Assembly: GCA_904501715.1 (NCBI GenBank)
Contig: CAJGCD010000002.1
Coordinates: 1 to 46,196, forward strand
DNA length: 46,196 bases
Direction: 5' to 3'
From: an uncultured Clostridia bacterium
Lineage (GTDB): Bacteria; Bacillota; Clostridia; Oscillospirales; CAG-272
Shown one piece after another: positions 6,381-18,045 of the stretch. The stretch's first letter is position 1, and the number at the start of each line of letters is the position of its first letter. A program made the translations under genes and the position numbers. Below the pieces are notes generated by a model. The model was not told the DNA's origin, searched no databases, and worked only from the letters and a program-made list of their open reading frames with translations.

Positions 6381-7058
6381 ATGTTTACAAGTATCCTGTC
6401 CCTTTTTTCAAGCTTTATCAATCTTATCCTTGGCATCAACACGCCCGGCAACTATCCCCCTCCCCTTCCCGCGGAAGAGGAGCACAGGCTTTTCCTCAAA
6501 GCCGAGGACGGTGAGAGCGCGGCGCGTGAGAAGCTGATACTTCACAACCTGCGGCTGGTGTCCCATATCGTGAGAAAATACTATTCCTCCGCCAAGAACC
6601 AAGAGGACCTGGTATCCATAGGAACCATAGGTCTTATAAAGGCGGTAGACAGCTTTCACGTAAGCACGGGTGCCCGTTTTGCCACCTACGCGGCAAAATG
6701 TATACAAAACGAGATACTTATGCACTTCCGTTCTCAGAAAAAGCTTGCCGCCGAGGTGTCGCTCAGCGACACCATAGACGTAGACCGTGACGGGAATCCC
6801 CTTACTTATATGGACGTAGTCTGCACCGAGGAATCACTGGATTCCGAGGTAGCCAAAAAGCTCTACTCCGACAAGGCTATGCGCCTCATTTCCACCGTGC
6901 TCGATGCGCGAAGCAAGAAAATAATCGCTATGCGCTACGGACTTGGGGGCAGAAAGCCTCTGACTCAGCGTCAGGTAGCCGAGCGCCTTGGCATCTCCCG
7001 CTCTTACGTAAGCCGCATCGAGAAAAGTGCTCTGTCGAAGCTGAAAAATTATTTTTAA
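6381..7058 (+). CDS. sigK: sporulation sigma factor, SigK-like (pro-sigma with N-terminal pro-sequence)
   Basis: AAAGGAG SD. A hydrophobic pro-sequence ends at ..[37 protein letters not shown] and [14 protein letters not shown] match SigK better than SigE. The gene is uninterrupted. Confidence 0.75.
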
Positions 7059-8943: not shown

Positions 8944-8972
8944 TTGACTAATTTTCCATATATTGGTATAAT
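8944..8972 (+). promoter_or_regulatory. consensus sigma-A promoter of the 1411-aa ORF
   Basis: TTGACT (8944-8949), 17-nt spacer, TATAAT (8967-8972). Confidence 0.75.
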
Positions 8973-9015
8973 ACTTTTATGAAAGCTAAATTTTTCGGAG
9001 GATAGCAAAAAACAT

Positions 9016-12000
9016 ATGAAAGCAAAAGAATTACACGCAAAAAACGGGGATTTTCGACACAGATTTTACGCAGCCTTGGCTCTGCTGATTTTGTCGATGA
9101 TATTCTTCCCCCTCATAGTCACGGCAAATACATCGGCGCAGGATTTTAGTGCGGAAAATCACAACCTTATCGAATCCTATCTTGCTGATATCGGCGAGGA
9201 GATAAGCCGGTACAAGCAGATGGACCCGACCCCTACCAAAAGCATATCCGCAGAAGTAACCAACGTCATAAACAAATACAGAAGCGAGCTGTCAGCTCTT
9301 GACGGACACGAGGACTCCTCAAAACGGTCAATGAAATATGAAATAGACCAAGCCTATGTCCGAAGCACCAGCGCAGGCAGCCTTGCGTGGATATATTTCT
9401 TCAATATAAAGGATATATCCTCCCCCTCATCCATAAGCACAGTAAAGGATGTCTACGATAACGCTCTTTTGAAAATAGGCGAGGATATGAGCGCGGAATC
9501 CTTAAGGACCACCTGCTCCGATCTGTGTGTAGAGCTGAACAGAGCAGTCTACACGGAAAAAATTTCCTTGCTGCTGCGCGAGGGAGATTCCCAGCAATGT
9601 CTGGGATACGTTGATTTAGCTCTCGGAAAGCTCGCAAACATTAAATCCGACTCCACGGGCGGCGGTGAGTTTGTTACTGTTTTTGAGGAAACAAAGGAAT
9701 TACTGTTACTGCAACGGGCACGCGACAGCCTTTATTCTCAAGCCGTAGATATCTTTTCCATAATAAGACCCGATGAGGACATCAAGGAAAACAGCCGAGT
9801 AGGCGTGTTCAACATTCAATTGGGAGACGCAGACAGCATAGCGGCAATGAATGAGGAAATGAGAACGCTCATAGACGACCTGACAGAGTCCTTCATAGGC
9901 AAAAAATATACCAATATATTTATAAGCAATTTGGTCGTATCGGTCAACGATATAGCAACAAGAGCAACCGCCGCGGGAGAGGCGGGAGATTTTACGGCAC
10001 CGTTTGAGGGCTACACCCTCGCATACGAAAAGGCGCGCGCCAAGGACGAGATACTAACTCTGCTCCTGAAGGACGGAGAGGACAGCGAGCTTACACGCAT
10101 AGAAGGCTTATTTAACGGTTACGGCTGCATAATAGACAGCTGTACAAGCGCCTTGGAGATAAAAGCCGAAATAAAGCGTGCCAACTATGAAAAACAGCTG
10201 TATTCGGCGTTGAAGAGCGCTCACTCCGACCTTAATATAATTTTAGGAAGCTATGATAGCTCTTCCTTTCTCTCGCGTCTCAAGGACTGCTACGACAGCG
10301 CCTTTGTTTCTCTGAGCGTTCTGTCGAGCTCCTCGGCACAGTTTGATGAAAATTGCAATAAATCTCTTGAAAAGGCTCTTGGGGAGATGAGAGATATAAT
10401 CCAAGAGGCAAAAGCCCAAAGATATCTTATAGACCACAGCGCCATAATCAAGAAAAGCCGTGACGAGCTGACTAAAGCGGACGAAACAGCCCTGAGAATA
10501 GCCATAACCGACTATCTCAAGCTTGAAAACTCGGTTGGAGCCGTAATATCAAGTCAAATAAATTCTATAATTGAAAAATACAAGACCGTTTTAGGAATAT
10601 CAATACGCTCTCTCCGCGATGATGACCTATATTACTTGGATTTGTGCGAAATTATAATAAACGAATTAAAATCAACACCCACAAATAATATTGATGAATT
10701 TTATAATAATTGTGACATAATACTTTCAAAAGCCAACACCCTTTCCCAGATAGTGTCCTATTACCGTCAGTTATACTCCGCCGAGCTGTATAAGTCTTAC
10801 ACGGACGAGGAAAAGCAGTCTCTCTCACAGGCATGCAAGGATGCCGCAAGCAAGCTCAGGGACTTGAAGCTTTTACCGAGCAGCGGCCACGATGAAGTGT
10901 TGAAAATTACAATAATAGATTTTGACAGAATAGACCAAGGTGTACGGGTAAGAGCATCGGCAAGAGGAAGCGAAAACGCAAATATACAAAAGCTCATCTC
11001 GGATGCCAAGGCCACTATTTTTCTATGCACCGACAGAAACGAGATGACAGTAATAGCCGACAAGGCTATCTTCAAAATAAACCGCCTTCTGACAGTGGAT
11101 ACTATGATCTCCCGCTCCGACGAATGCTGCTATCTCATTAAAAAGATGAAGTTTATATCAGAGGAGGATAAGGATTCTTACACCGCAAAAATAGAAAACC
11201 TTAAAAAATCGCTTACCGAGGAGGCTACCTTAGCGCAAAACGTCACCGTTCTCGACTTTGTGTGGAATAGCTTTACAGAGGAGCTTAACAGCATCCTCAA
11301 GAGTGCTCAGGAAGCCGACCTCAAAAAAAGCCGTGAGGAATACTCTGCCCTCATAATCAAGGACCGAGAAAAATTCGAAGAAGCCATCGGCGCCTTCGCG
11401 CAGCTCAGCGCCACACGAAAGAAGGAGCTTCTCGACTCCGCGGTAGCACTGTGCGCAAAATTCACCGCTGATATACAGAGCTGCGAGAGCAGCGATAAAG
11501 TAACGCAAGCCTACGCAACCGCCCTTGAACAGCTCCATGCTCTGGAGCTGACAGCGTCGGGAGAAAATCTTACCATCTATAAGGGCACCGTAACAATAGA
11601 GCTGGACAAGCTGTGCCCCGCCAAAGAGAACTACTCGGCAGACAATTACACTAAAATTCTCGATACCATAGCGAATGCCAAGAAAAAGCTCTCCTCCTGC
11701 GTCAGCATATCCGAATGCACCGCTCTTCTTGATACCACCGCAAAGAGCATCGACAATATAAACGACCTTCTGGAGGATGCCAAGGCTTCCGCCCTTGATG
11801 CCCTGCGAGATGCGCTTAAGCTTTGCACGGATAACACCTCGCTCTATTCCTCGGACAATATCGCTCTTGCAAAAAAGCTTTACGACGATGCCGAGAAAGC
11901 CATAAATCAATATAAGGAAATATTCAACATTCCCCAGCTTAACGAGAGCCTTGCCCAAGCGCTGGAGCTTATCCGCGGCGTGCGCAGAGATACTCTGTAC

Positions 12001-13251
12001 ACCTCAAACGAGGCGTCGGTCATCACCTCTCCTAAGGCAGAATACCCTCTGGGCTACGATTTTTCCACAGGATATTGGGGAAAGGTGTACTCCAAGAACG
12101 GCATACTTTCGGGAGCATCCCTGTCTATAAGTGAGTCAGCCGAGGATCTGAAGGCACTTCAGAAGCTCATACGAAGAGCTGTAAAAAATGACGGTATCAC
12201 TGTATACGGAGAACTGAGTGCAAAGGAGCGCAAGATGCTGCAAAAATGCGTGGTCGCTCTGGGGCTGGATATATCCCTCTCGGAAATCTCAAGCGATGCA
12301 AAAGGCTACACGCTTCAAATGCTTCTTCCCTCCTCATATAAGGACGAAAACGTGCTGGGTCTTGCCTTTGTGGACAAGGACGGCAGGGTGGAATTTTACA
12401 GCATAGAGCAAAGAGATCTGCTTATATCGCTGAACACCTCACATTTTTCGAGCTATTACGTTCTCTGCGAGGAAACCATAGACCTGACTCCCCTTCTTAT
12501 ATTCCTTATAATTCTTCTGGTGTTTGAGATAATCGTATTCTGCTTCGTTATGTTCCTGCGATACAACCGCAGGAGAAAGGAAAAAAATATGCTTCCCGAA
12601 AGCTTTCTTTACAGTTTAAATCCCTTCCTTGCGTATACCGCTCTTCGCATAAAGCCCTCAAACGCGGTGGAGCTGACCGTTCTCCTGTCGGTAGCCGCCT
12701 TAGCTCTCGGCTGCGGAATAGCTTTTCTGGCGCGGGCGGAGCTCTCCTTCCTGAAAAAGCAAAAGGGTGAGGACATTCATCCCCGCCACGCAAGACAGAG
12801 CCAACCCGAGCTTGATAAAAAGCGCACACCTATGTTACGCCCCAAGCCCTCGCTCCTAAAGGAGAGATCATCCGAGCTTCTCCCCGAGGGTCAAGAGGTT
12901 CCCGTGCTGTGCGGAGCCCCGGCGGACAGCGAAGGTGACATTGAAGCCCTTTTCTTTGACGGTGTGTCTCACGAGGAGGACACCGAAGGCGAAGCCGAGC
13001 CCAAAGAGGCGCGGCAGGCATCCCACCGCGCCGAAATAAATCTTGACGTTATTGCCGAAAAATTCCGCGACGGCGAGCTCGTAACCGTAGAGGCACTGAA
13101 AAAGAAACGCCTTGTGAGCAAGAAAGCCGACTATGTAAAGATACTCGCACGCGGAGCGCTTACAAAGCCTCTCATAATCGAGGCGCACGATTTCAGCCGA
13201 GCCGCCGAGGAAATGCTTACAGCAGTAGGCGGCGAGGCAATACGGATATAA
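9016..13251 (+). CDS. giant membrane-anchored helical-repeat protein with C-terminal uL15-like domain (1411 aa)
   Basis: Uninterrupted ORF. It has an N-terminal hydrophobic anchor or signal, ~1100 aa of Ala/Leu/Glu/Lys/Ser-rich sequence, then two hydrophobic segments (nt ~12484-12560 and ~12668-12735). An acidic/Pro-rich linker follows. The last ~70 aa resemble the C-terminal half of ribosomal protein uL15. Confidence 0.8.
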   Translation: MKAKELHAKNGDFRHRFYAALALLILSMIFFPLIVTANTSAQDFSAENHNLIESYLADIGEEISRYKQMDPTPTKSISAEVTNVINKYRSELSALDGHEDSSKRSMKYEIDQAYVRSTSAGSLAWIYFFNIKDISSPSSISTVKDVYDNALLKIGEDMSAESLRTTCSDLCVELNRAVYTEKISLLLREGDSQQCLGYVDLALGKLANIKSDSTGGGEFVTVFEETKELLLLQRARDSLYSQAVDIFSIIRPDEDIKENSRVGVFNIQLGDADSIAAMNEEMRTLIDDLTESFIGKKYTNIFISNLVVSVNDIATRATAAGEAGDFTAPFEGYTLAYEKARAKDEILTLLLKDGEDSELTRIEGLFNGYGCIIDSCTSALEIKAEIKRANYEKQLYSALKSAHSDLNIILGSYDSSSFLSRLKDCYDSAFVSLSVLSSSSAQFDENCNKSLEKALGEMRDIIQEAKAQRYLIDHSAIIKKSRDELTKADETALRIAITDYLKLENSVGAVISSQINSIIEKYKTVLGISIRSLRDDDLYYLDLCEIIINELKSTPTNNIDEFYNNCDIILSKANTLSQIVSYYRQLYSAELYKSYTDEEKQSLSQACKDAASKLRDLKLLPSSGHDEVLKITIIDFDRIDQGVRVRASARGSENANIQKLISDAKATIFLCTDRNEMTVIADKAIFKINRLLTVDTMISRSDECCYLIKKMKFISEEDKDSYTAKIENLKKSLTEEATLAQNVTVLDFVWNSFTEELNSILKSAQEADLKKSREEYSALIIKDREKFEEAIGAFAQLSATRKKELLDSAVALCAKFTADIQSCESSDKVTQAYATALEQLHALELTASGENLTIYKGTVTIELDKLCPAKENYSADNYTKILDTIANAKKKLSSCVSISECTALLDTTAKSIDNINDLLEDAKASALDALRDALKLCTDNTSLYSSDNIALAKKLYDDAEKAINQYKEIFNIPQLNESLAQALELIRGVRRDTLYTSNEASVITSPKAEYPLGYDFSTGYWGKVYSKNGILSGASLSISESAEDLKALQKLIRRAVKNDGITVYGELSAKERKMLQKCVVALGLDISLSEISSDAKGYTLQMLLPSSYKDENVLGLAFVDKDGRVEFYSIEQRDLLISLNTSHFSSYYVLCEETIDLTPLLIFLIILLVFEIIVFCFVMFLRYNRRRKEKNMLPESFLYSLNPFLAYTALRIKPSNAVELTVLLSVAALALGCGIAFLARAELSFLKKQKGEDIHPRHARQSQPELDKKRTPMLRPKPSLLKERSSELLPEGQEVPVLCGAPADSEGDIEALFFDGVSHEEDTEGEAEPKEARQASHRAEINLDVIAEKFRDGELVTVEALKKKRLVSKKADYVKILARGALTKPLIIEAHDFSRAAEEMLTAVGGEAIRI

Positions 13252-13833: not shown

Positions 13834-13862
13834 TTGCTTTTTTTATTGGATTATGTTACAAT
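13834..13862 (+). promoter_or_regulatory. sigma-A-type promoter of smpB
   Basis: TTGCTT (13834-13839), 17-nt spacer, TACAAT (13857-13862). Confidence 0.55.
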
Positions 13863-13894
13863 ATATTGCAAAATACCGAGAAAGGAGAGCTTAT

Positions 13895-14374
13895 ATGGCA
13901 AATCATACGCAGATAAAGACCGTGGCGCAGAACAAAAAAGCATATCACGACTACTTCGTGGACGAAAAATACGAAGCGGGAATAGCTCTCTACGGTACAG
14001 AGGTCAAAAGCATCCGTATGGGCGCGGTAAATCTTAAGGATACCTACTGCTCACTCAAAAACGGAGAGCTTTTCGTGGTAGGTATGCACGTCAGCCCCTA
14101 CGAGAAGGGCAATATCTTCAACCGAGAGCCAAGACGCGAGCGAAAGCTCCTTATGCACAAGAGAGAGATAATGAAGCTGGGCGGTCTTGTAGCACAAAAG
14201 GGTTATACACTCGTTCCCCTCTCGCTCTACTTTTCGGGCAAAAATCTCAAGGTGGAGATAGGGCTTTGCCGAGGCAAAAAGCTCTACGACAAGCGTGACG
14301 CTCTCGCCGAAAAGCAGGCAAACCGAGAGATGGACAGACGGATGAAGGATTCCTCAAAGGGATACCGCGAATAG
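13895..14374 (+). CDS. smpB: SsrA-binding protein SmpB
   Basis: Start trimmed to the ATG at 13895 (AAAGGAGAG SD). Motifs seen are [24 protein letters not shown] and the C-terminal basic tail. It lies immediately upstream of tmRNA. Confidence 0.95.
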
Positions 14375-14416: not shown

Positions 14417-14784
14417 GGGTCCGTAAAGGTTTCGACGGGGATTTTGAGGTATGATAAGCGGGTAGAGCCGGGCAATCTCTTAAAAGGCCTAACTTTAAAA
14501 TTAAACGCTAACGATAACGTTGCAATGGCTGCCTAAGGGCAGTGCCGCGGCCTGAGCGCCGCCCGTTCCTCCCGAGAGTATCGCGGCTCGGGACTGAGCG
14601 TCAAGTAAGCGGTGAACGTGCGTCGGTCTTTCGCCATTGAGCCGACCACGCAGAAAATGGCTACCCGAGTGGGAAGTCTGTCTGTTGACGTCCGACAAGG
14701 GGAATTCTAAAAAACAGACTGCACCCGGAGAAGGTCATATCAAGAGGTTTTCGGACAGGGGTTCAATTCCCCTCGGATCCACCA
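14417..14784 (+). ncRNA. ssrA: tmRNA (SsrA), one-piece
   Basis: The 5' GGGTCCG.. pairs with the 3' ..CGGATCC-ACCA, including the G3:U pair. The T-arm is GGGGTTCAATTCCCC. The tag reading frame at 14507-14533 encodes ANDNVAMAA, followed by TAA (14534-14536). Confidence 0.9.
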
Positions 14785-16824: not shown

Positions 16825-18045
16825 TCAATCAAAATATCTCAGACTTACGTCAACGGGCACCTTTCCCGTTTTCACGTAGCCGGGAAAAAGCTTGTTTGCC
16901 TGCTCAAGCACCGAGGTGTCCGACAGCTCGGCGGGAGGTATCTCTCCGTATATGGCTCTGTATATCATATGCGCTCCTACGTATCCCGCAAGAGGAGTGC
17001 TGTGCTTATGCGCGTCGTCAATGCAGAACTCCCACATATCCACGCCGCTCTCAATAAGCATATTTATCTCTCCGCGCCAATCAAGGGTCTTAAGCTCAGG
17101 GCATCTTTCCTGCGCCTTCTTGATGCAATCCTCAAACTCGTTATGAGCGGGGAATATTACCAGCTCGGTGTCGGACTCATTGCACGCCTCCTCAAGGATG
17201 GCAAGATGGTCCGCCTCCTCGTGAGCGTAAAAGCCGCATATAAATACGCAATCGTAGACACCGTTTCTTATTTCGTGCATAAGCGCCGCGTCTCCGATAT
17301 AGGTATCAACCTCAGCCATTCCTCTGGTCACCGCCGTCATATCAAGCTGTTTGCCGCCCGCGTTAAGCATATCCTGAAGTATATAGCCTATTTGAGAGGT
17401 GCCTATAAAGCTGTTGCCCAGAATGATCACCTTGCCGTCGGCTACGTGAGAGAGCATATTCAGATTGAGCTGGTTTCCAAGGCTCTCTGTTCGGGGTGCC
17501 ACCGTTAGCATACTGCAGCCCGATTTGTCAAGCTCGGAGTAATCGCAAACCATTGTAACGGTCTTTTTGGAGCTGTCCTCATATTGGTATCTTATTCTAT
17601 GCCTGAATTCGGGACCGTCCGCACCGTCCTTCATCTCTATTCTTCTCTCTCTGGTGATACCTCTGGAATTATCCTTTGACAGTGATATCTCCTGCCAATC
17701 CGATATATCCTCAGCCTCACCCGCAAATACCTTTCCTATTTCCTTGCCGCCGCGCAGGAGAGCGTATTCGCCCGCCTTAGGGCTTACGAGCCACTCGGTG
17801 GGAAAGGACATAACAAAGGCTATGTCGCTGTCACTAAAGCCGAAATATATCTCCTGAAGCTTTGACACAGAGCGGCACTCTATATCCAGATATGCCTCCT
17901 CCTTTTCGGTCTTCTTCCCACTCTGAGCGGGGGGAGTCTGTGTGCTTCCGTCATTTGAGTCTCCCGTAACAAAGCTCATATCTATGGTGCATCCGCACAG
18001 AAAAAGTGAAAATGCCAACAATATTGCCAAGAAAGTCTTTTTCAT
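16825..18045 (-). CDS. lipoprotein with SGNH/DUF4886-like C-terminal domain
   Basis: Lipobox LFLCGC follows a signal peptide. The C-terminal half carries ILGNSFIGTS and DDAHKHSTPLAGYVGAH, reminiscent of SGNH-type hydrolases. Confidence 0.55.
   Translation of the reverse strand: MKKTFLAILLAFSLFLCGCTIDMSFVTGDSNDGSTQTPPAQSGKKTEKEEAYLDIECRSVSKLQEIYFGFSDSDIAFVMSFPTEWLVSPKAGEYALLRGGKEIGKVFAGEAEDISDWQEISLSKDNSRGITRERRIEMKDGADGPEFRHRIRYQYEDSSKKTVTMVCDYSELDKSGCSMLTVAPRTESLGNQLNLNMLSHVADGKVIILGNSFIGTSQIGYILQDMLNAGGKQLDMTAVTRGMAEVDTYIGDAALMHEIRNGVYDCVFICGFYAHEEADHLAILEEACNESDTELVIFPAHNEFEDCIKKAQERCPELKTLDWRGEINMLIESGVDMWEFCIDDAHKHSTPLAGYVGAHMIYRAIYGEIPPAELSDTSVLEQANKLFPGYVKTGKVPVDVSLRYFD

What the first reader, a model, noticed from the sequence alone, without database searches (positions are those of the whole stretch)
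9016..13251. Giant envelope-anchored helical-repeat protein ending in a ribosomal uL15-like domain
Seen in sequence: one uninterrupted 1411-codon ORF sits behind a consensus promoter. It begins with an N-terminal hydrophobic anchor or signal (..LIVTANTSA/QD). About 1100 aa of Ala/Leu/Glu/Lys/Ser-rich sequence follows, with recurring Y-x(3)-Y/N...L..A..K helix-bundle-like modules, then a beta-looking juxtamembrane segment. Two hydrophobic segments follow, each trailed by a basic cluster (RYNRRRKEK; KKQKGEDIHPRHARQ), then an acidic/Pro-rich linker. The last ~70 aa (nt ~13030-13248) read INLDVIAEKFRDGELVTVEALKKKRLVSKKADYVKILARGALTKPLIIEAHDFSRAAEEMLTAVGGEAIRI. From memory, this tracks the C-terminal half of bacterial uL15/RplO: vNL..L.....g.eVt.e.L...g.i.k....vKiLg.G.L.k.l.v.a..fS.sA.e.i.aaGG....i. 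Established knowledge: uL15 is normally a free ~145 aa ribosomal protein whose globular C-terminal part contacts 23S rRNA. Inference: the tail could be an rRNA- or ribosome-binding module tethered to a very long surface scaffold, perhaps for ribosome tethering or RNA sensing at the membrane. I know of no characterised protein with this architecture. Basic residues follow both hydrophobic segments, so whether the tail is cytoplasmic is ambiguous.
Basis: partly seen in the sequence, partly recalled or inferred. Interest (0 to 1): 0.78.

Follow-up and report, generated by a model that had tools for sequence, protein, structure and literature searches.

The report
Surface rod protein with cytoplasmic uL15-like tail
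A real, conserved gene of gut Clostridia encodes a long helical surface protein whose inner end is a copy of the globular half of ribosomal protein uL15; hundreds of unrelated membrane proteins carry the same tail and nobody has studied it.

Summary
ORF 9016-13251 (1411 aa) sits behind a near-consensus promoter. Its last 73 residues match the Pfam L15/L27A domain over the whole model (E 1e-15 to 1e-17). An AlphaFold model of the tail (pLDDT 97-98) retrieves only ribosomal uL15 chains from the PDB.

The fusion is not an assembly artefact. Thirteen independent genome assemblies (MAGs) and about 50 protein clusters share the architecture. The tail is the most constrained part (dN/dS 0.03, against 0.13 for the ectodomain).

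The tail is not a one-off. An exhaustive search found 356 cluster representatives at E<=1e-10. The best 150 all carry it at the extreme C-terminus, on proteins of about 90 to 5520 aa. These include LRR/Ig adhesins, proteins anchored by an N-terminal TM segment, and soluble forms.

Comparing these architectures places the tail in the cytoplasm, on a disordered acidic tether below the membrane anchor. It is not a ribosomal protein: it lacks the uL15 N-terminal extension and scores below the rplO equivalog cut-off.

Function is untested. My best guess is a cytoplasmic docking module, possibly for rRNA or the large ribosomal subunit. I found no literature on it; databases call it "uL15 family ribosomal protein".

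The parts
8944..8972 (+). Sigma-70-type promoter: TTGACT, 17-nt spacer, TG-extended TATAAT
   Evidence: Matches 11 of 12 positions with TG before the -10 hexamer; sequence read.
8997..9002 (+). Shine-Dalgarno GGAGGA, 13 nt upstream of the ATG
   Evidence: Read directly from the sequence.
9016..13251 (+). Complete CDS, 1411 codons plus stop
   Evidence: Purifying selection along its whole length against L001 (dN/dS 0.03-0.39). Full-length relatives in 13 MAG loci.
9016..9138 (+). Signal peptide or signal anchor, aa 1-41: basic n-region, 18-residue h-region, TSA/QD
   Evidence: Sequence inspection. A hydrophobic N-terminal segment is present in nearly all full-length relatives.
9139..11970 (+). 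Extracytoplasmic all-helical rod, aa 42-985: about 35 helices, net charge -43
   Evidence: AlphaFold pLDDT 88.8. No Pfam or NCBIfam family. Foldseek gives only weak local matches to EbhA, BibA, Embp and vinculin. Faint ~60-aa internal repeats.
11971..12471 (+). Juxtamembrane alpha/beta domain, aa 986-1152, ending in the HFSSYYVL...DLTP motif
   Evidence: pLDDT about 97. The HFSxY...DLTW motif is shared with single-TM relatives.
12472..12555 (+). TM1, aa 1153-1180: stop-transfer anchor with a nearly invariant Glu1171, followed by the basic cluster RYNRRRKEK
   Evidence: Hydropathy. AlphaFold helix aa ~1158-1190. Relatives average 5.3 Lys/Arg in the loop after it. E1171 is invariant in A1.
12556..12738 (+). 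Basic loop plus predicted membrane hairpin, aa 1181-1241: short Pro-rich hydrophobic segment, a turn (PSNA here, PxGG in many relatives), then a 22-residue TM
   Evidence: Charge and hydropathy pattern over 48 relatives. The same hairpin occurs in P0065, P0079 and P0106, and is absent from single-TM relatives.
12739..13029 (+). Disordered Glu/Pro-rich cytoplasmic tether, aa 1242-1338
   Evidence: pLDDT 40-50. Least conserved region: identity 0.16 and dN/dS 0.34. Composition.
13030..13248 (+). uL15 C-terminal-domain homologue (PF00828), aa 1339-1411, at the extreme C-terminus
   Evidence: Most conserved region: identity 0.64 and dN/dS 0.028.

Best explanation
The gene encodes a Sec-exported, membrane-anchored surface protein.

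Anatomy: a rod of helical bundles about 950 residues long, plus an alpha/beta juxtamembrane domain, stands outside the cell. One stop-transfer helix (with a conserved Glu) and a short membrane hairpin hold it in the membrane. A disordered Glu/Pro-rich tether of about 95 residues hangs into the cytoplasm. The tether ends in a 73-residue domain that descends from the globular C-terminal half of Firmicute ribosomal protein uL15.

Family: the protein belongs to a large, uncharacterised Firmicute family defined by this tail. The tail always lies at the extreme C-terminus, usually after a membrane anchor and an acidic tether.

Proposed mechanism: the tail is a cytoplasmic docking module. The only known activity of this fold is binding structured large-subunit rRNA on the ribosome surface. 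The tail keeps nearly all positions conserved in real uL15 and adds conserved basic residues. The most likely partner is therefore RNA, probably the large ribosomal subunit or a precursor of it. That would link an envelope protein physically to the translation apparatus.

Status of each step:
- Shown: homology, fold, conservation, family breadth.
- Inferred with good support: cytoplasmic location.
- Inferred weakly: RNA or ribosome as the partner.

My sub-confidences are: architecture and homology 0.95, cytoplasmic tail 0.8, RNA/ribosome docking 0.3.
For: Homology and fold:
- PF00828 covers the full model at E 1e-15 to 1e-17.
- PDB uL15 chains align at residues 73-143.
- The tail model has pLDDT 97-98. 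The top 50 Foldseek hits are all uL15/eL27a, with globular-domain-only superpositions of 1.9-2.2 A over 75-80 columns.

The gene and the fusion are real:
- Seven aligned homologues, 13 syntenic MAG loci and about 50 clusters with a homologous ectodomain.
- dN/dS is below 0.4 throughout. The tail is at 0.028, the ectodomain 0.127 and the linker 0.337.

Family breadth:
- 2041 representatives at E<=1e-3 and 356 at E<=1e-10. The best 150 all carry the tail at the C-terminal end, on proteins of about 90-5520 aa.
- 3242 clusters at 90% identity score E<=1e-5.
- Partner regions include BspA-LRR, Flg_new and Big_3 domains, and large ectodomains followed by one TM and a Pro/Glu linker.

Cytoplasmic location:
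- Relatives with a signal peptide, one TM (sharing the query's HFSxY..DLTW motif), KKK and an acidic linker of net charge -40 to -116 before the tail.
- Proteins anchored by an N-terminal TM with Lys/Arg after it.
- Soluble forms with no TM or signal peptide: P0292, P0363 and the CAG:313 protein.
- In the query family, 5.3 Lys/Arg follow TM1 and 5.3 follow the last TM. A nearly uncharged 16-aa segment and an 8-aa turn lie between them.

Retention of uL15 features:
- The tail-family profile scores 62 bits against Firmicute uL15. N-L-D, VT, VKILxxGxLxKxLTVxAxxFSxxA and GG are shared; K52, K54 and R69 are family-specific.
Against: - There is no experimental or co-evolutionary evidence for any partner.
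- In the ribosome, much of the binding energy of uL15 is generally attributed to the N-terminal extension, which is absent here. The uL15 site on mature 50S is already occupied by the resident protein.
- The shared conserved positions could be fold determinants rather than RNA contacts. I could not map them onto rRNA contacts because no coordinates were available.
- The tail's net charge is only modestly positive (mean +2.1, range -4 to +8) and does not differ from canonical C-domains.
- Gene neighbourhoods give no consistent functional signal.
- AlphaFold shows only two long helices after the ectodomain. The intervening hydrophobic segment is modelled as two short helices of low confidence, so the hairpin topology rests on comparative argument.
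Confidence: 0.45

Rival explanations
1. The uL15-derived tail has been exapted as a protein-protein module in the cytoplasm, for example for clustering, localisation, or recruitment of a dedicated partner. It has no contact with RNA or ribosomes, and its similarity to uL15 reflects only fold maintenance.
For: - The tail lacks the N-terminal extension that anchors real uL15.
- Several conserved positions are family-specific: LKEKKL, ARG and KMIxLTGG, against LvEtGi, GnG and EAIEAAGG in uL15.
- It often co-occurs with a second, unknown, conserved ~140-aa cytoplasmic domain and a short EAxxLMSDExA motif, which suggests a dedicated cytoplasmic assembly.
- Its net charge is unremarkable.
Against: - No non-RNA function is known for this fold.
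- Almost every position conserved in canonical uL15 globular domains is retained, including surface Lys residues.
- No conserved partner gene was seen in any neighbourhood.
Confidence: 0.35
2. The protein spans the membrane only twice after the signal peptide. Tether and tail are then extracellular, and the tail binds an external polyanion such as teichoic acid or extracellular nucleic acid.
For: - Simple hydropathy finds two strong TM segments after the N-terminal one.
- AlphaFold draws two long helices, with only short low-confidence helices between them.
Against: - Relatives with a signal peptide and a single TM, relatives with only an N-terminal TM followed by Lys/Arg, and soluble relatives with no signal all carry the same tail.
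- Basic clusters follow both TM1 and the last TM in 48 relatives. A nearly uncharged hydrophobic 16-mer and a short turn lie between them, which fits a hairpin.
Confidence: 0.07
3. The tail is a functional ribosomal protein: either an alternative uL15, or a precursor from which a uL15-like piece is released into ribosomes.
For: - The PF00828 match is strong.
- NCBI names relatives 'uL15 family ribosomal protein' or '50S ribosomal protein L15'.
Against: - TIGR01071 scores 46-51 bits against a cut-off of 77.95 and covers only model positions 69-142.
- There is no Gly/Arg-rich N-terminal extension.
- The gene is not in a ribosomal operon.
- The family scores 96-126 bits on its own profile, while PDB uL15 chains reach at most 62.
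- The tail is covalently tied to membrane proteins of up to 5520 aa.
Confidence: 0.03
4. The ORF is an assembly or frameshift artefact that joins a surface-protein gene to a ribosomal-protein gene.
For: None found.
Against: - The same end-to-end architecture is found in independent assemblies from many samples.
- Codon-level purifying selection runs across the junction.
- The tail lacks the first half of uL15, so no intact rplO could have been joined.
Confidence: 0.01

Closest known systems
Bacterial ribosomal protein uL15 (RplO; Pfam PF00828, TIGR01071)
   Same: - The last 73 residues are homologous to uL15 residues ~73-143 and have the same fold.
- The conserved N-L-D, VKILxxGxLxK, FSxxA and GG positions are shared.
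- The closest matches are Firmicute uL15 chains.
   Different: - No N-terminal Gly/Arg/Lys extension, and below the equivalog cut-off.
- Not a free ~145-aa protein and not in the spc operon.
- Fused behind a membrane anchor and an acidic tether.
- Forms its own clade: 96-126 bits on the family profile, against at most 62 for PDB uL15.
Giant staphylococcal surface proteins Ebh / Embp (also the helical domain of BibA)
   Same: - Signal peptide, very long rod of helical bundles, C-terminal transmembrane anchor and a cytoplasmic tail (general knowledge of Ebh).
- Weak local structural matches to EbhA 2dgj, Embp 6gv5 and BibA 6poo, with probability 0.8-0.9.
   Different: - No FIVAR, GA or DUF1542 Pfam hit and no significant Foldseek E-value.
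- Different juxtamembrane domain.
- To my knowledge, Ebh has no ribosomal-protein domain in its cytoplasmic tail.
Membrane-ribosome tethers (mitochondrial Mba1/mL45, Oxa1/YidC C-terminal tails)
   Same: A functional analogy only. These are membrane-anchored proteins whose matrix or cytoplasmic part contacts the large ribosomal subunit (general knowledge). The best explanation proposes the same kind of contact for this tail.
   Different: No sequence or fold relationship. Those tethers act at the tunnel exit during membrane-protein insertion, whereas uL15 lies elsewhere on the subunit. Ribosome contact is not demonstrated here.
LPXTG / sortase-anchored Gram-positive surface proteins
   Same: An N-terminal signal peptide and a C-terminal hydrophobic segment followed by a basic cluster.
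   Different: No LPXTG motif near the anchor; the only match is an incidental LPSSG at aa 620. About 230 further residues follow the first anchor.

Membership tests
Pfam PF00828 (Ribosomal_L27A; L15/L18e/L27A domain superfamily) | Score above the gathering threshold, with full coverage of the domain model | tested here: met
   58.1 bits in the whole protein and 64.5 on the tail alone, against a cut-off of 21.5. Model positions 1-71 of 72 are covered.
Pfam PF00828 (Ribosomal_L27A; L15/L18e/L27A domain superfamily) | The L15/L18e alpha/beta fold | tested here: met
   AlphaFold pLDDT 97-98. Foldseek probability 1.00 to uL15 chains, rmsd 1.9-2.2 A over 75-80 columns.
Ribosomal protein uL15 proper (RplO, TIGR01071 equivalog) | Whole-protein score at or above the NCBIfam cut-off (77.95 bits) | tested here: not met
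   45.9-51.3 bits, on model positions 69-142 only.
Ribosomal protein uL15 proper (RplO, TIGR01071 equivalog) | N-terminal Gly/Arg/Lys-rich extension (about residues 1-70) that penetrates the rRNA core | tested here: not met
   No alignment to model positions 1-68. The preceding 97 residues are a Glu/Pro-rich disordered linker.
Ribosomal protein uL15 proper (RplO, TIGR01071 equivalog) | A free protein of about 145 aa, encoded in the spc ribosomal operon next to secY | tested here: not met
   The protein is 1411 aa. Its neighbours are ACT/DUF711 and VanZ/SmpB/tmRNA.
Ribosomal protein uL15 proper (RplO, TIGR01071 equivalog) | Stoichiometric component of 50S subunits | not testable with these tools
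   Needs ribosome proteomics.
Tail-defined family proposed here: C-terminal uL15-like module on Firmicute membrane proteins (databases: 'uL15 family ribosomal protein') | uL15-like domain at the extreme C-terminus, scoring far above canonical uL15 on the family profile | tested here: met
   The query scores 126 bits and relatives 96-126. PDB uL15 chains score at most 62. The tail is C-terminal in all 150 best hits.
Tail-defined family proposed here: C-terminal uL15-like module on Firmicute membrane proteins (databases: 'uL15 family ribosomal protein') | Preceded by a low-complexity acidic or Pro-rich tether and, in most members, a membrane anchor with a basic cluster on the tether side | tested here: met
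Ebh/Embp-type giant helical surface proteins | FIVAR / GA / DUF1542-type repeat domains | tested here: not met
   No Pfam hit in aa 1-1339. Foldseek E>=0.09 to EbhA, BibA and Embp.
Ebh/Embp-type giant helical surface proteins | Signal peptide, helical-bundle rod and C-terminal TM anchor with a cytoplasmic tail | tested here: met
   This is a resemblance of design, not shown homology.
Sortase (LPXTG) substrates | LPXTG motif immediately before a C-terminal hydrophobic segment and a short basic tail | tested here: not met
   The regex finds only LPSSG at aa 620. About 230 residues follow TM1.

The most novel reading that the evidence does not exclude
The uL15-derived tails are ribosome or pre-50S docking sites. 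Through them, Clostridia and related Firmicutes tie envelope proteins to the translation apparatus: giant adhesins, rods like this one, and small N-anchored proteins. This would be a bacterial transmembrane link between the cell surface and ribosomes. It could, for example, position ribosomes under sites of envelope assembly, or immobilise surface proteins on the bulky polysome mass. It would be built by exapting half of a core ribosomal protein.
Probability: 0.2. Interest if true: 0.88.

Novelty: new variant of a known kind. Interest (0 to 1): 0.7.

Why it matters
As far as I know, the L15/L18e fold has only ribosomal members. Here half of a universal ribosomal protein has been copied and fixed as the cytoplasmic end of hundreds of different membrane and surface proteins in gut Firmicutes. 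It is under stronger constraint than any other part of those proteins.

Whatever it binds is probably important for how these poorly studied bacteria organise their envelope proteins. If the partner is the ribosome, this would be a new way to couple the cell surface to translation.

There is also a practical consequence. Annotation pipelines label these genes 'uL15 family ribosomal protein' or '50S ribosomal protein L15'. That is misleading and can corrupt marker-gene counts and ribosomal-protein phylogenies built from MAGs.

Tried and rejected
- Literature: four full-text searches (uL15, PF00828, L15-like, Ribosomal_L27A, L18e, transmembrane, paralog) found nothing on this architecture.
- Ectodomain identity: no Pfam or NCBIfam family. 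The family profile against PDB hits only uL15, through the tail. Foldseek found nothing at E<=1e-3.
- 'Free' small uL15-like proteins: the ones I inspected were fragments. P0170 and P0238 are cut by scaffold gaps inside acidic repeats, and P0048 lies at a contig end. They are therefore not evidence for a free paralogue. P0292 and P0363 do appear to be genuinely soluble, but they carry an extra domain.
- Second cytoplasmic domain found in many relatives (alignment A5): no PDB or Pfam match, and all homologues are 'hypothetical'. It gives no functional lead.
- Gene neighbourhoods: there is no conserved partner. Synteny with ACT/DUF711 and smpB is simply lineage synteny.
- Net charge of the tail as a test for RNA binding: uninformative.
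- Phage origin: no relative in 2.9 million viral contigs.
- Cluster names: none available.
- Sortase anchoring: no LPXTG motif.
- Canonical rplO in the same genome: not checkable.

Full report
**1. What is in the sequence**

The ORF 9016-13251 on the + strand is uninterrupted and encodes 1411 aa. It is preceded by TTGACT-17 nt-TATAAT with an upstream TG, matching 11 of 12 positions at 8944-8972. A GGAGGA lies at 8997-9002.

The N-terminus has a basic n-region, an 18-residue hydrophobic core and TSA/QD, so it looks like a Sec signal peptide or signal anchor. Residues 42-985 are rich in Leu, Ser, Ala, Ile, Asp, Glu and Lys.

The C-terminal quarter contains, in order:
- a strongly hydrophobic segment followed by RYNRRRKEK;
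- a second hydrophobic segment followed by KKQK...RHARQ;
- a 97-residue Glu/Pro-rich stretch;
- the 73-residue tail.

Every descriptive element of the finding is therefore present at the stated coordinates.

**2. The tail is a uL15 C-terminal domain**

- Pfam PF00828 matches aa 1340-1408 over model positions 1-71 of 72. The E-value is 1.2e-15, or 1.2e-17 when the last 101 aa are scanned alone.
- The bacterial rplO equivalog TIGR01071 matches only its positions 69-142, at 46-51 bits. That is below its cut-off of 77.95.
- phmmer against PDB sequences aligns the tail to residues ~73-143 of uL15, and the best matches come from Firmicutes.
- An AlphaFold model of aa 985-1411, built on a 55-sequence alignment, gives the tail pLDDT 97-98.
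- Foldseek against the PDB returns 56 hits at E<=1e-3. The top 50 are all uL15/eL27a chains of ribosome structures, with probability 1.00. Superpositions limited to the globular domain give 1.9-2.2 A over 75-80 columns.

It covers only the globular half of uL15. The Gly/Arg-rich N-terminal extension that threads into the rRNA is absent. In its place is a linker predicted to be disordered (pLDDT 40-50).

**3. The fusion is genuine and conserved**

- A word-indexed search found six full-length homologues (77-25% identity, 1342-1420 aa), all with PF00828 at the end.
- A scan of one genome per species found 13 full-length relatives in MAGs of Clostridia, Eubacteriales, Lachnospiraceae and Oscillospiraceae, several of them from animal guts.
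- These relatives lie in the same chromosomal position: after the ACT and DUF711 genes and, in most of these loci, before (VanZ and) smpB. The neighbours are 80-97% identical, while this gene is only 37-77% identical. It is a fast-evolving, vertically inherited gene.
- Among the representatives returned by the exhaustive search, about 50 clusters at 50% identity have a homologous ectodomain.
- Against the closest relative (L001), dN/dS by region is: tail 0.028, TM region 0.066, juxtamembrane domain 0.098, helical rod 0.127, linker 0.337.
- Mean identity to 47 relatives is 0.64 for the tail, 0.29 for the rod and 0.16 for the linker.

An assembly or frameshift artefact is excluded, and the tail is the part that selection cares about most.

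**4. The tail is a recurrent module, not a one-off**

An exhaustive phmmer run of the last 101 aa against 1.84 billion cluster representatives gave 2041 hits at E<=1e-3 and 356 at E<=1e-10. All 150 listed hits carry the match at the extreme C-terminus, on proteins of about 90 to 5520 aa. A profile search of the 90%-identity collection found 3242 proteins at E<=1e-5. Where named at all, they are called 'uL15 family ribosomal protein', '50S ribosomal protein L15' or 'hypothetical'.

The partner regions are unrelated to each other:
- P0079 has BspA-type LRRs, Listeria-Bacteroides repeats and Big_3, a typical adhesin make-up.
- P0120, P0121, P0152 and P0154 have large unknown ectodomains, one TM and a Pro/Glu-rich 'extensin-like' linker.
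- A whole class has only an N-terminal TM. It is followed by an acidic linker, one to three copies of an unknown ~140-aa domain, often a short EAxxLMSDExA motif, and then the tail.
- P0292 and P0363 are soluble proteins consisting of that domain plus the tail. P0363 is a stand-alone gene with a 300-nt upstream spacer.

The apparently free ~100-170-aa proteins I inspected turned out to be fragments. They are cut by scaffold gaps inside (EEPVV)n-type repeats or by contig ends. No relative occurs in the viral contig collection.

**5. Topology**

Four lines of evidence place it in the cytoplasm.

(a) Relatives P0120, P0121, P0130, P0145, P0151, P0152 and P0154 have this layout: a juxtamembrane motif HFSxYaiv...DLTWLW, a single very hydrophobic TM, KKK, an acidic linker (net charge -40 to -116) and the tail. 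All but P0145, whose N-terminus is truncated, also start with a clear signal peptide. With a signal peptide and one TM, the tail must be cytoplasmic. The query shares the same motif (HFSSYYVL...DLTPLL) before its TM1.

(b) In the N-terminally anchored class, the N-terminal tip is generally short and nearly uncharged, and Lys/Arg follow the TM. That again puts the C-terminus inside.

(c) Soluble members have no export signal.

(d) Across 48 members of the query's own family, the loop after TM1 carries 5.3 Lys/Arg on average. Next comes a 16-residue, nearly uncharged, Pro-rich hydrophobic segment (mean hydropathy 1.06). Then follow an 8-residue turn (often PxGG) with 0.7 Lys/Arg, a 22-residue TM, and another 5.3 Lys/Arg.

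The pattern in (d) is that of a helical hairpin that starts and ends in the cytoplasm. The same hairpin is present in P0065, P0079 and P0106 and absent from the single-TM relatives, so it is an optional insert.

One caveat: AlphaFold draws only two long helices, with two short low-confidence helices between them. The hairpin therefore rests on comparative argument. I put the cytoplasmic location at about 0.8.

**6. The extracellular part**

An AlphaFold model of aa 41-1150, built on 48 sequences, has mean pLDDT 88.8 and pTM 0.46, as expected for an elongated object. It consists of about 35 helices followed by an alpha/beta domain. That juxtamembrane domain scores pLDDT ~97 in the second model.

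Foldseek finds nothing significant. The best local resemblances are to vinculin, the BibA helical domain, EbhA and Embp, which are rods of helical bundles. Profile self-comparison shows only faint ~60-residue repeats. No Pfam or NCBIfam family matches.

The design recalls the giant staphylococcal protein Ebh: signal peptide, helical rod, C-terminal TM and a cytoplasmic tail. Membership in that family is not supported.

**7. How it probably works**

Shown: a surface rod, a membrane anchor, a flexible acidic tether and a highly constrained uL15-type globular domain.

Inferred: the tail is a docking module in the cytoplasm. The tether lets it search a volume some nanometres below the membrane.

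The only activity known for this fold is binding structured large-subunit rRNA at the ribosome surface. The family keeps essentially all positions that are conserved in canonical Firmicute uL15 globular domains: N-L-D, VT, VKILxxGxLxKxLTVxAxxFSxxA and GG. It also adds conserved basic residues (LKEKKL, ARG). I therefore favour RNA or large-subunit docking, at about 0.3.

The main rival, a purely protein-binding exaptation, is nearly as likely. Four points argue against ribosome docking:
- the N-terminal extension is missing;
- the uL15 site on mature 50S is already occupied;
- the net charge is unremarkable;
- gene context is uninformative.

**8. Comparison with what is known, and novelty**

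The protein is a member of the PF00828 domain superfamily. It fails three defining features of ribosomal protein uL15: the equivalog score, the N-terminal extension, and the size and operon context.

Four literature searches found no description of a membrane-tethered or otherwise non-ribosomal uL15 domain. Databases carry only automatic names.

I classify it as a new variant of known kinds: a ribosomal-protein domain and a Gram-positive membrane-anchored rod, in a combination and on a scale that appear undescribed. Interest is 0.7. The family is large, strongly constrained, specific to poorly studied gut Firmicutes and directly testable. The function itself remains open.

Noticed in passing
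P0049, P0063, P0084, P0093, P0116, P0119, P0131, P0133, P0142, P0150, P0155; also P0065 aa 4477-4903, P0106 aa 5203-5370, P0154 aa 1733-1900 (alignment A5): An unknown ~140-residue cytoplasmic domain (VRYNxSFxAKLIQS...LSYxxVKxRxSW...GR...RGKTLCxYLALDP..Y..TKY...) occurs in 1-3 copies between the membrane anchor and the uL15-like tail in many relatives. It also occurs alone in ~240-295-aa Clostridia proteins. It has no Pfam or PDB match, and the window protein lacks it.
   Followed up: partly
Relatives, 20-90 residues upstream of the tail (e.g. P0005 SVSAEEADALMSDREV, P0292 VSAAEADLLMSDSHAEK): A short conserved motif of the type phi-x-EA-xx-LMSDE-x-A precedes the tail in 46 of 155 relatives. 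It is degenerate or absent in the window protein. It may be a second binding element or a helix that packs on the tail.
   Followed up: partly
window 12526-12528 (Glu1171 inside TM1): A Glu in the middle of the first transmembrane helix is invariant in the close family and at least 90% conserved in 55 relatives. This suggests a polar contact within the membrane, either oligomerisation or pairing with the hairpin.
   Followed up: no
L017-L020 (5400-6402), L021 (5076-7480), L024 (319-753): Several database entries called '50S ribosomal protein L15' or 'uL15 family ribosomal protein' of ~100-170 aa are C-terminal fragments of longer genes. They are cut by 100-N scaffold gaps inside acidic (EEPVV)n-type repeats or by contig ends. 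Such fragments could inflate ribosomal marker counts in MAG quality checks.
   Followed up: yes
L021 1-7480: A 4615-aa surface-protein gene ends in a TM and a short tail. Immediately after it comes a separate gene for an N-terminally anchored protein with two copies of the unknown domain and the uL15-like tail. This may be a 'split' version of the fused architecture.
   Followed up: partly
window 13853-14374 and 14417-14784; L017, L021, L023, L025: smpB and the tmRNA gene (tag ANDNVAMAA) lie just downstream of the giant gene. In other organisms, tail-bearing genes sit next to rpsL-rpsG-fusA-tuf or thrS, or close to tyrS or an EF-G paralogue. Translation genes nearby in 5 of 5 inspected contexts may be chance; this is a post-hoc observation.
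   Followed up: no
window 6381-7058: A sigma-70 family gene whose product starts with a hydrophobic leader and PPPLPAEEE before region 2. It resembles the pro-sequence of sporulation sigma factors SigE/SigK (from memory), which suggests a spore-forming lineage.
   Followed up: no
window 9016-13248 (protein collection cluster): The window protein is filed in a 90%-identity cluster whose representative is a 51-aa peptide and whose other members are 45 aa. This explains why it did not appear as its own hit. It looks like a clustering oddity.
   Followed up: no
window 16825-18045 (-): A 406-aa ORF with no Pfam match at E<=1e-5.
   Followed up: no
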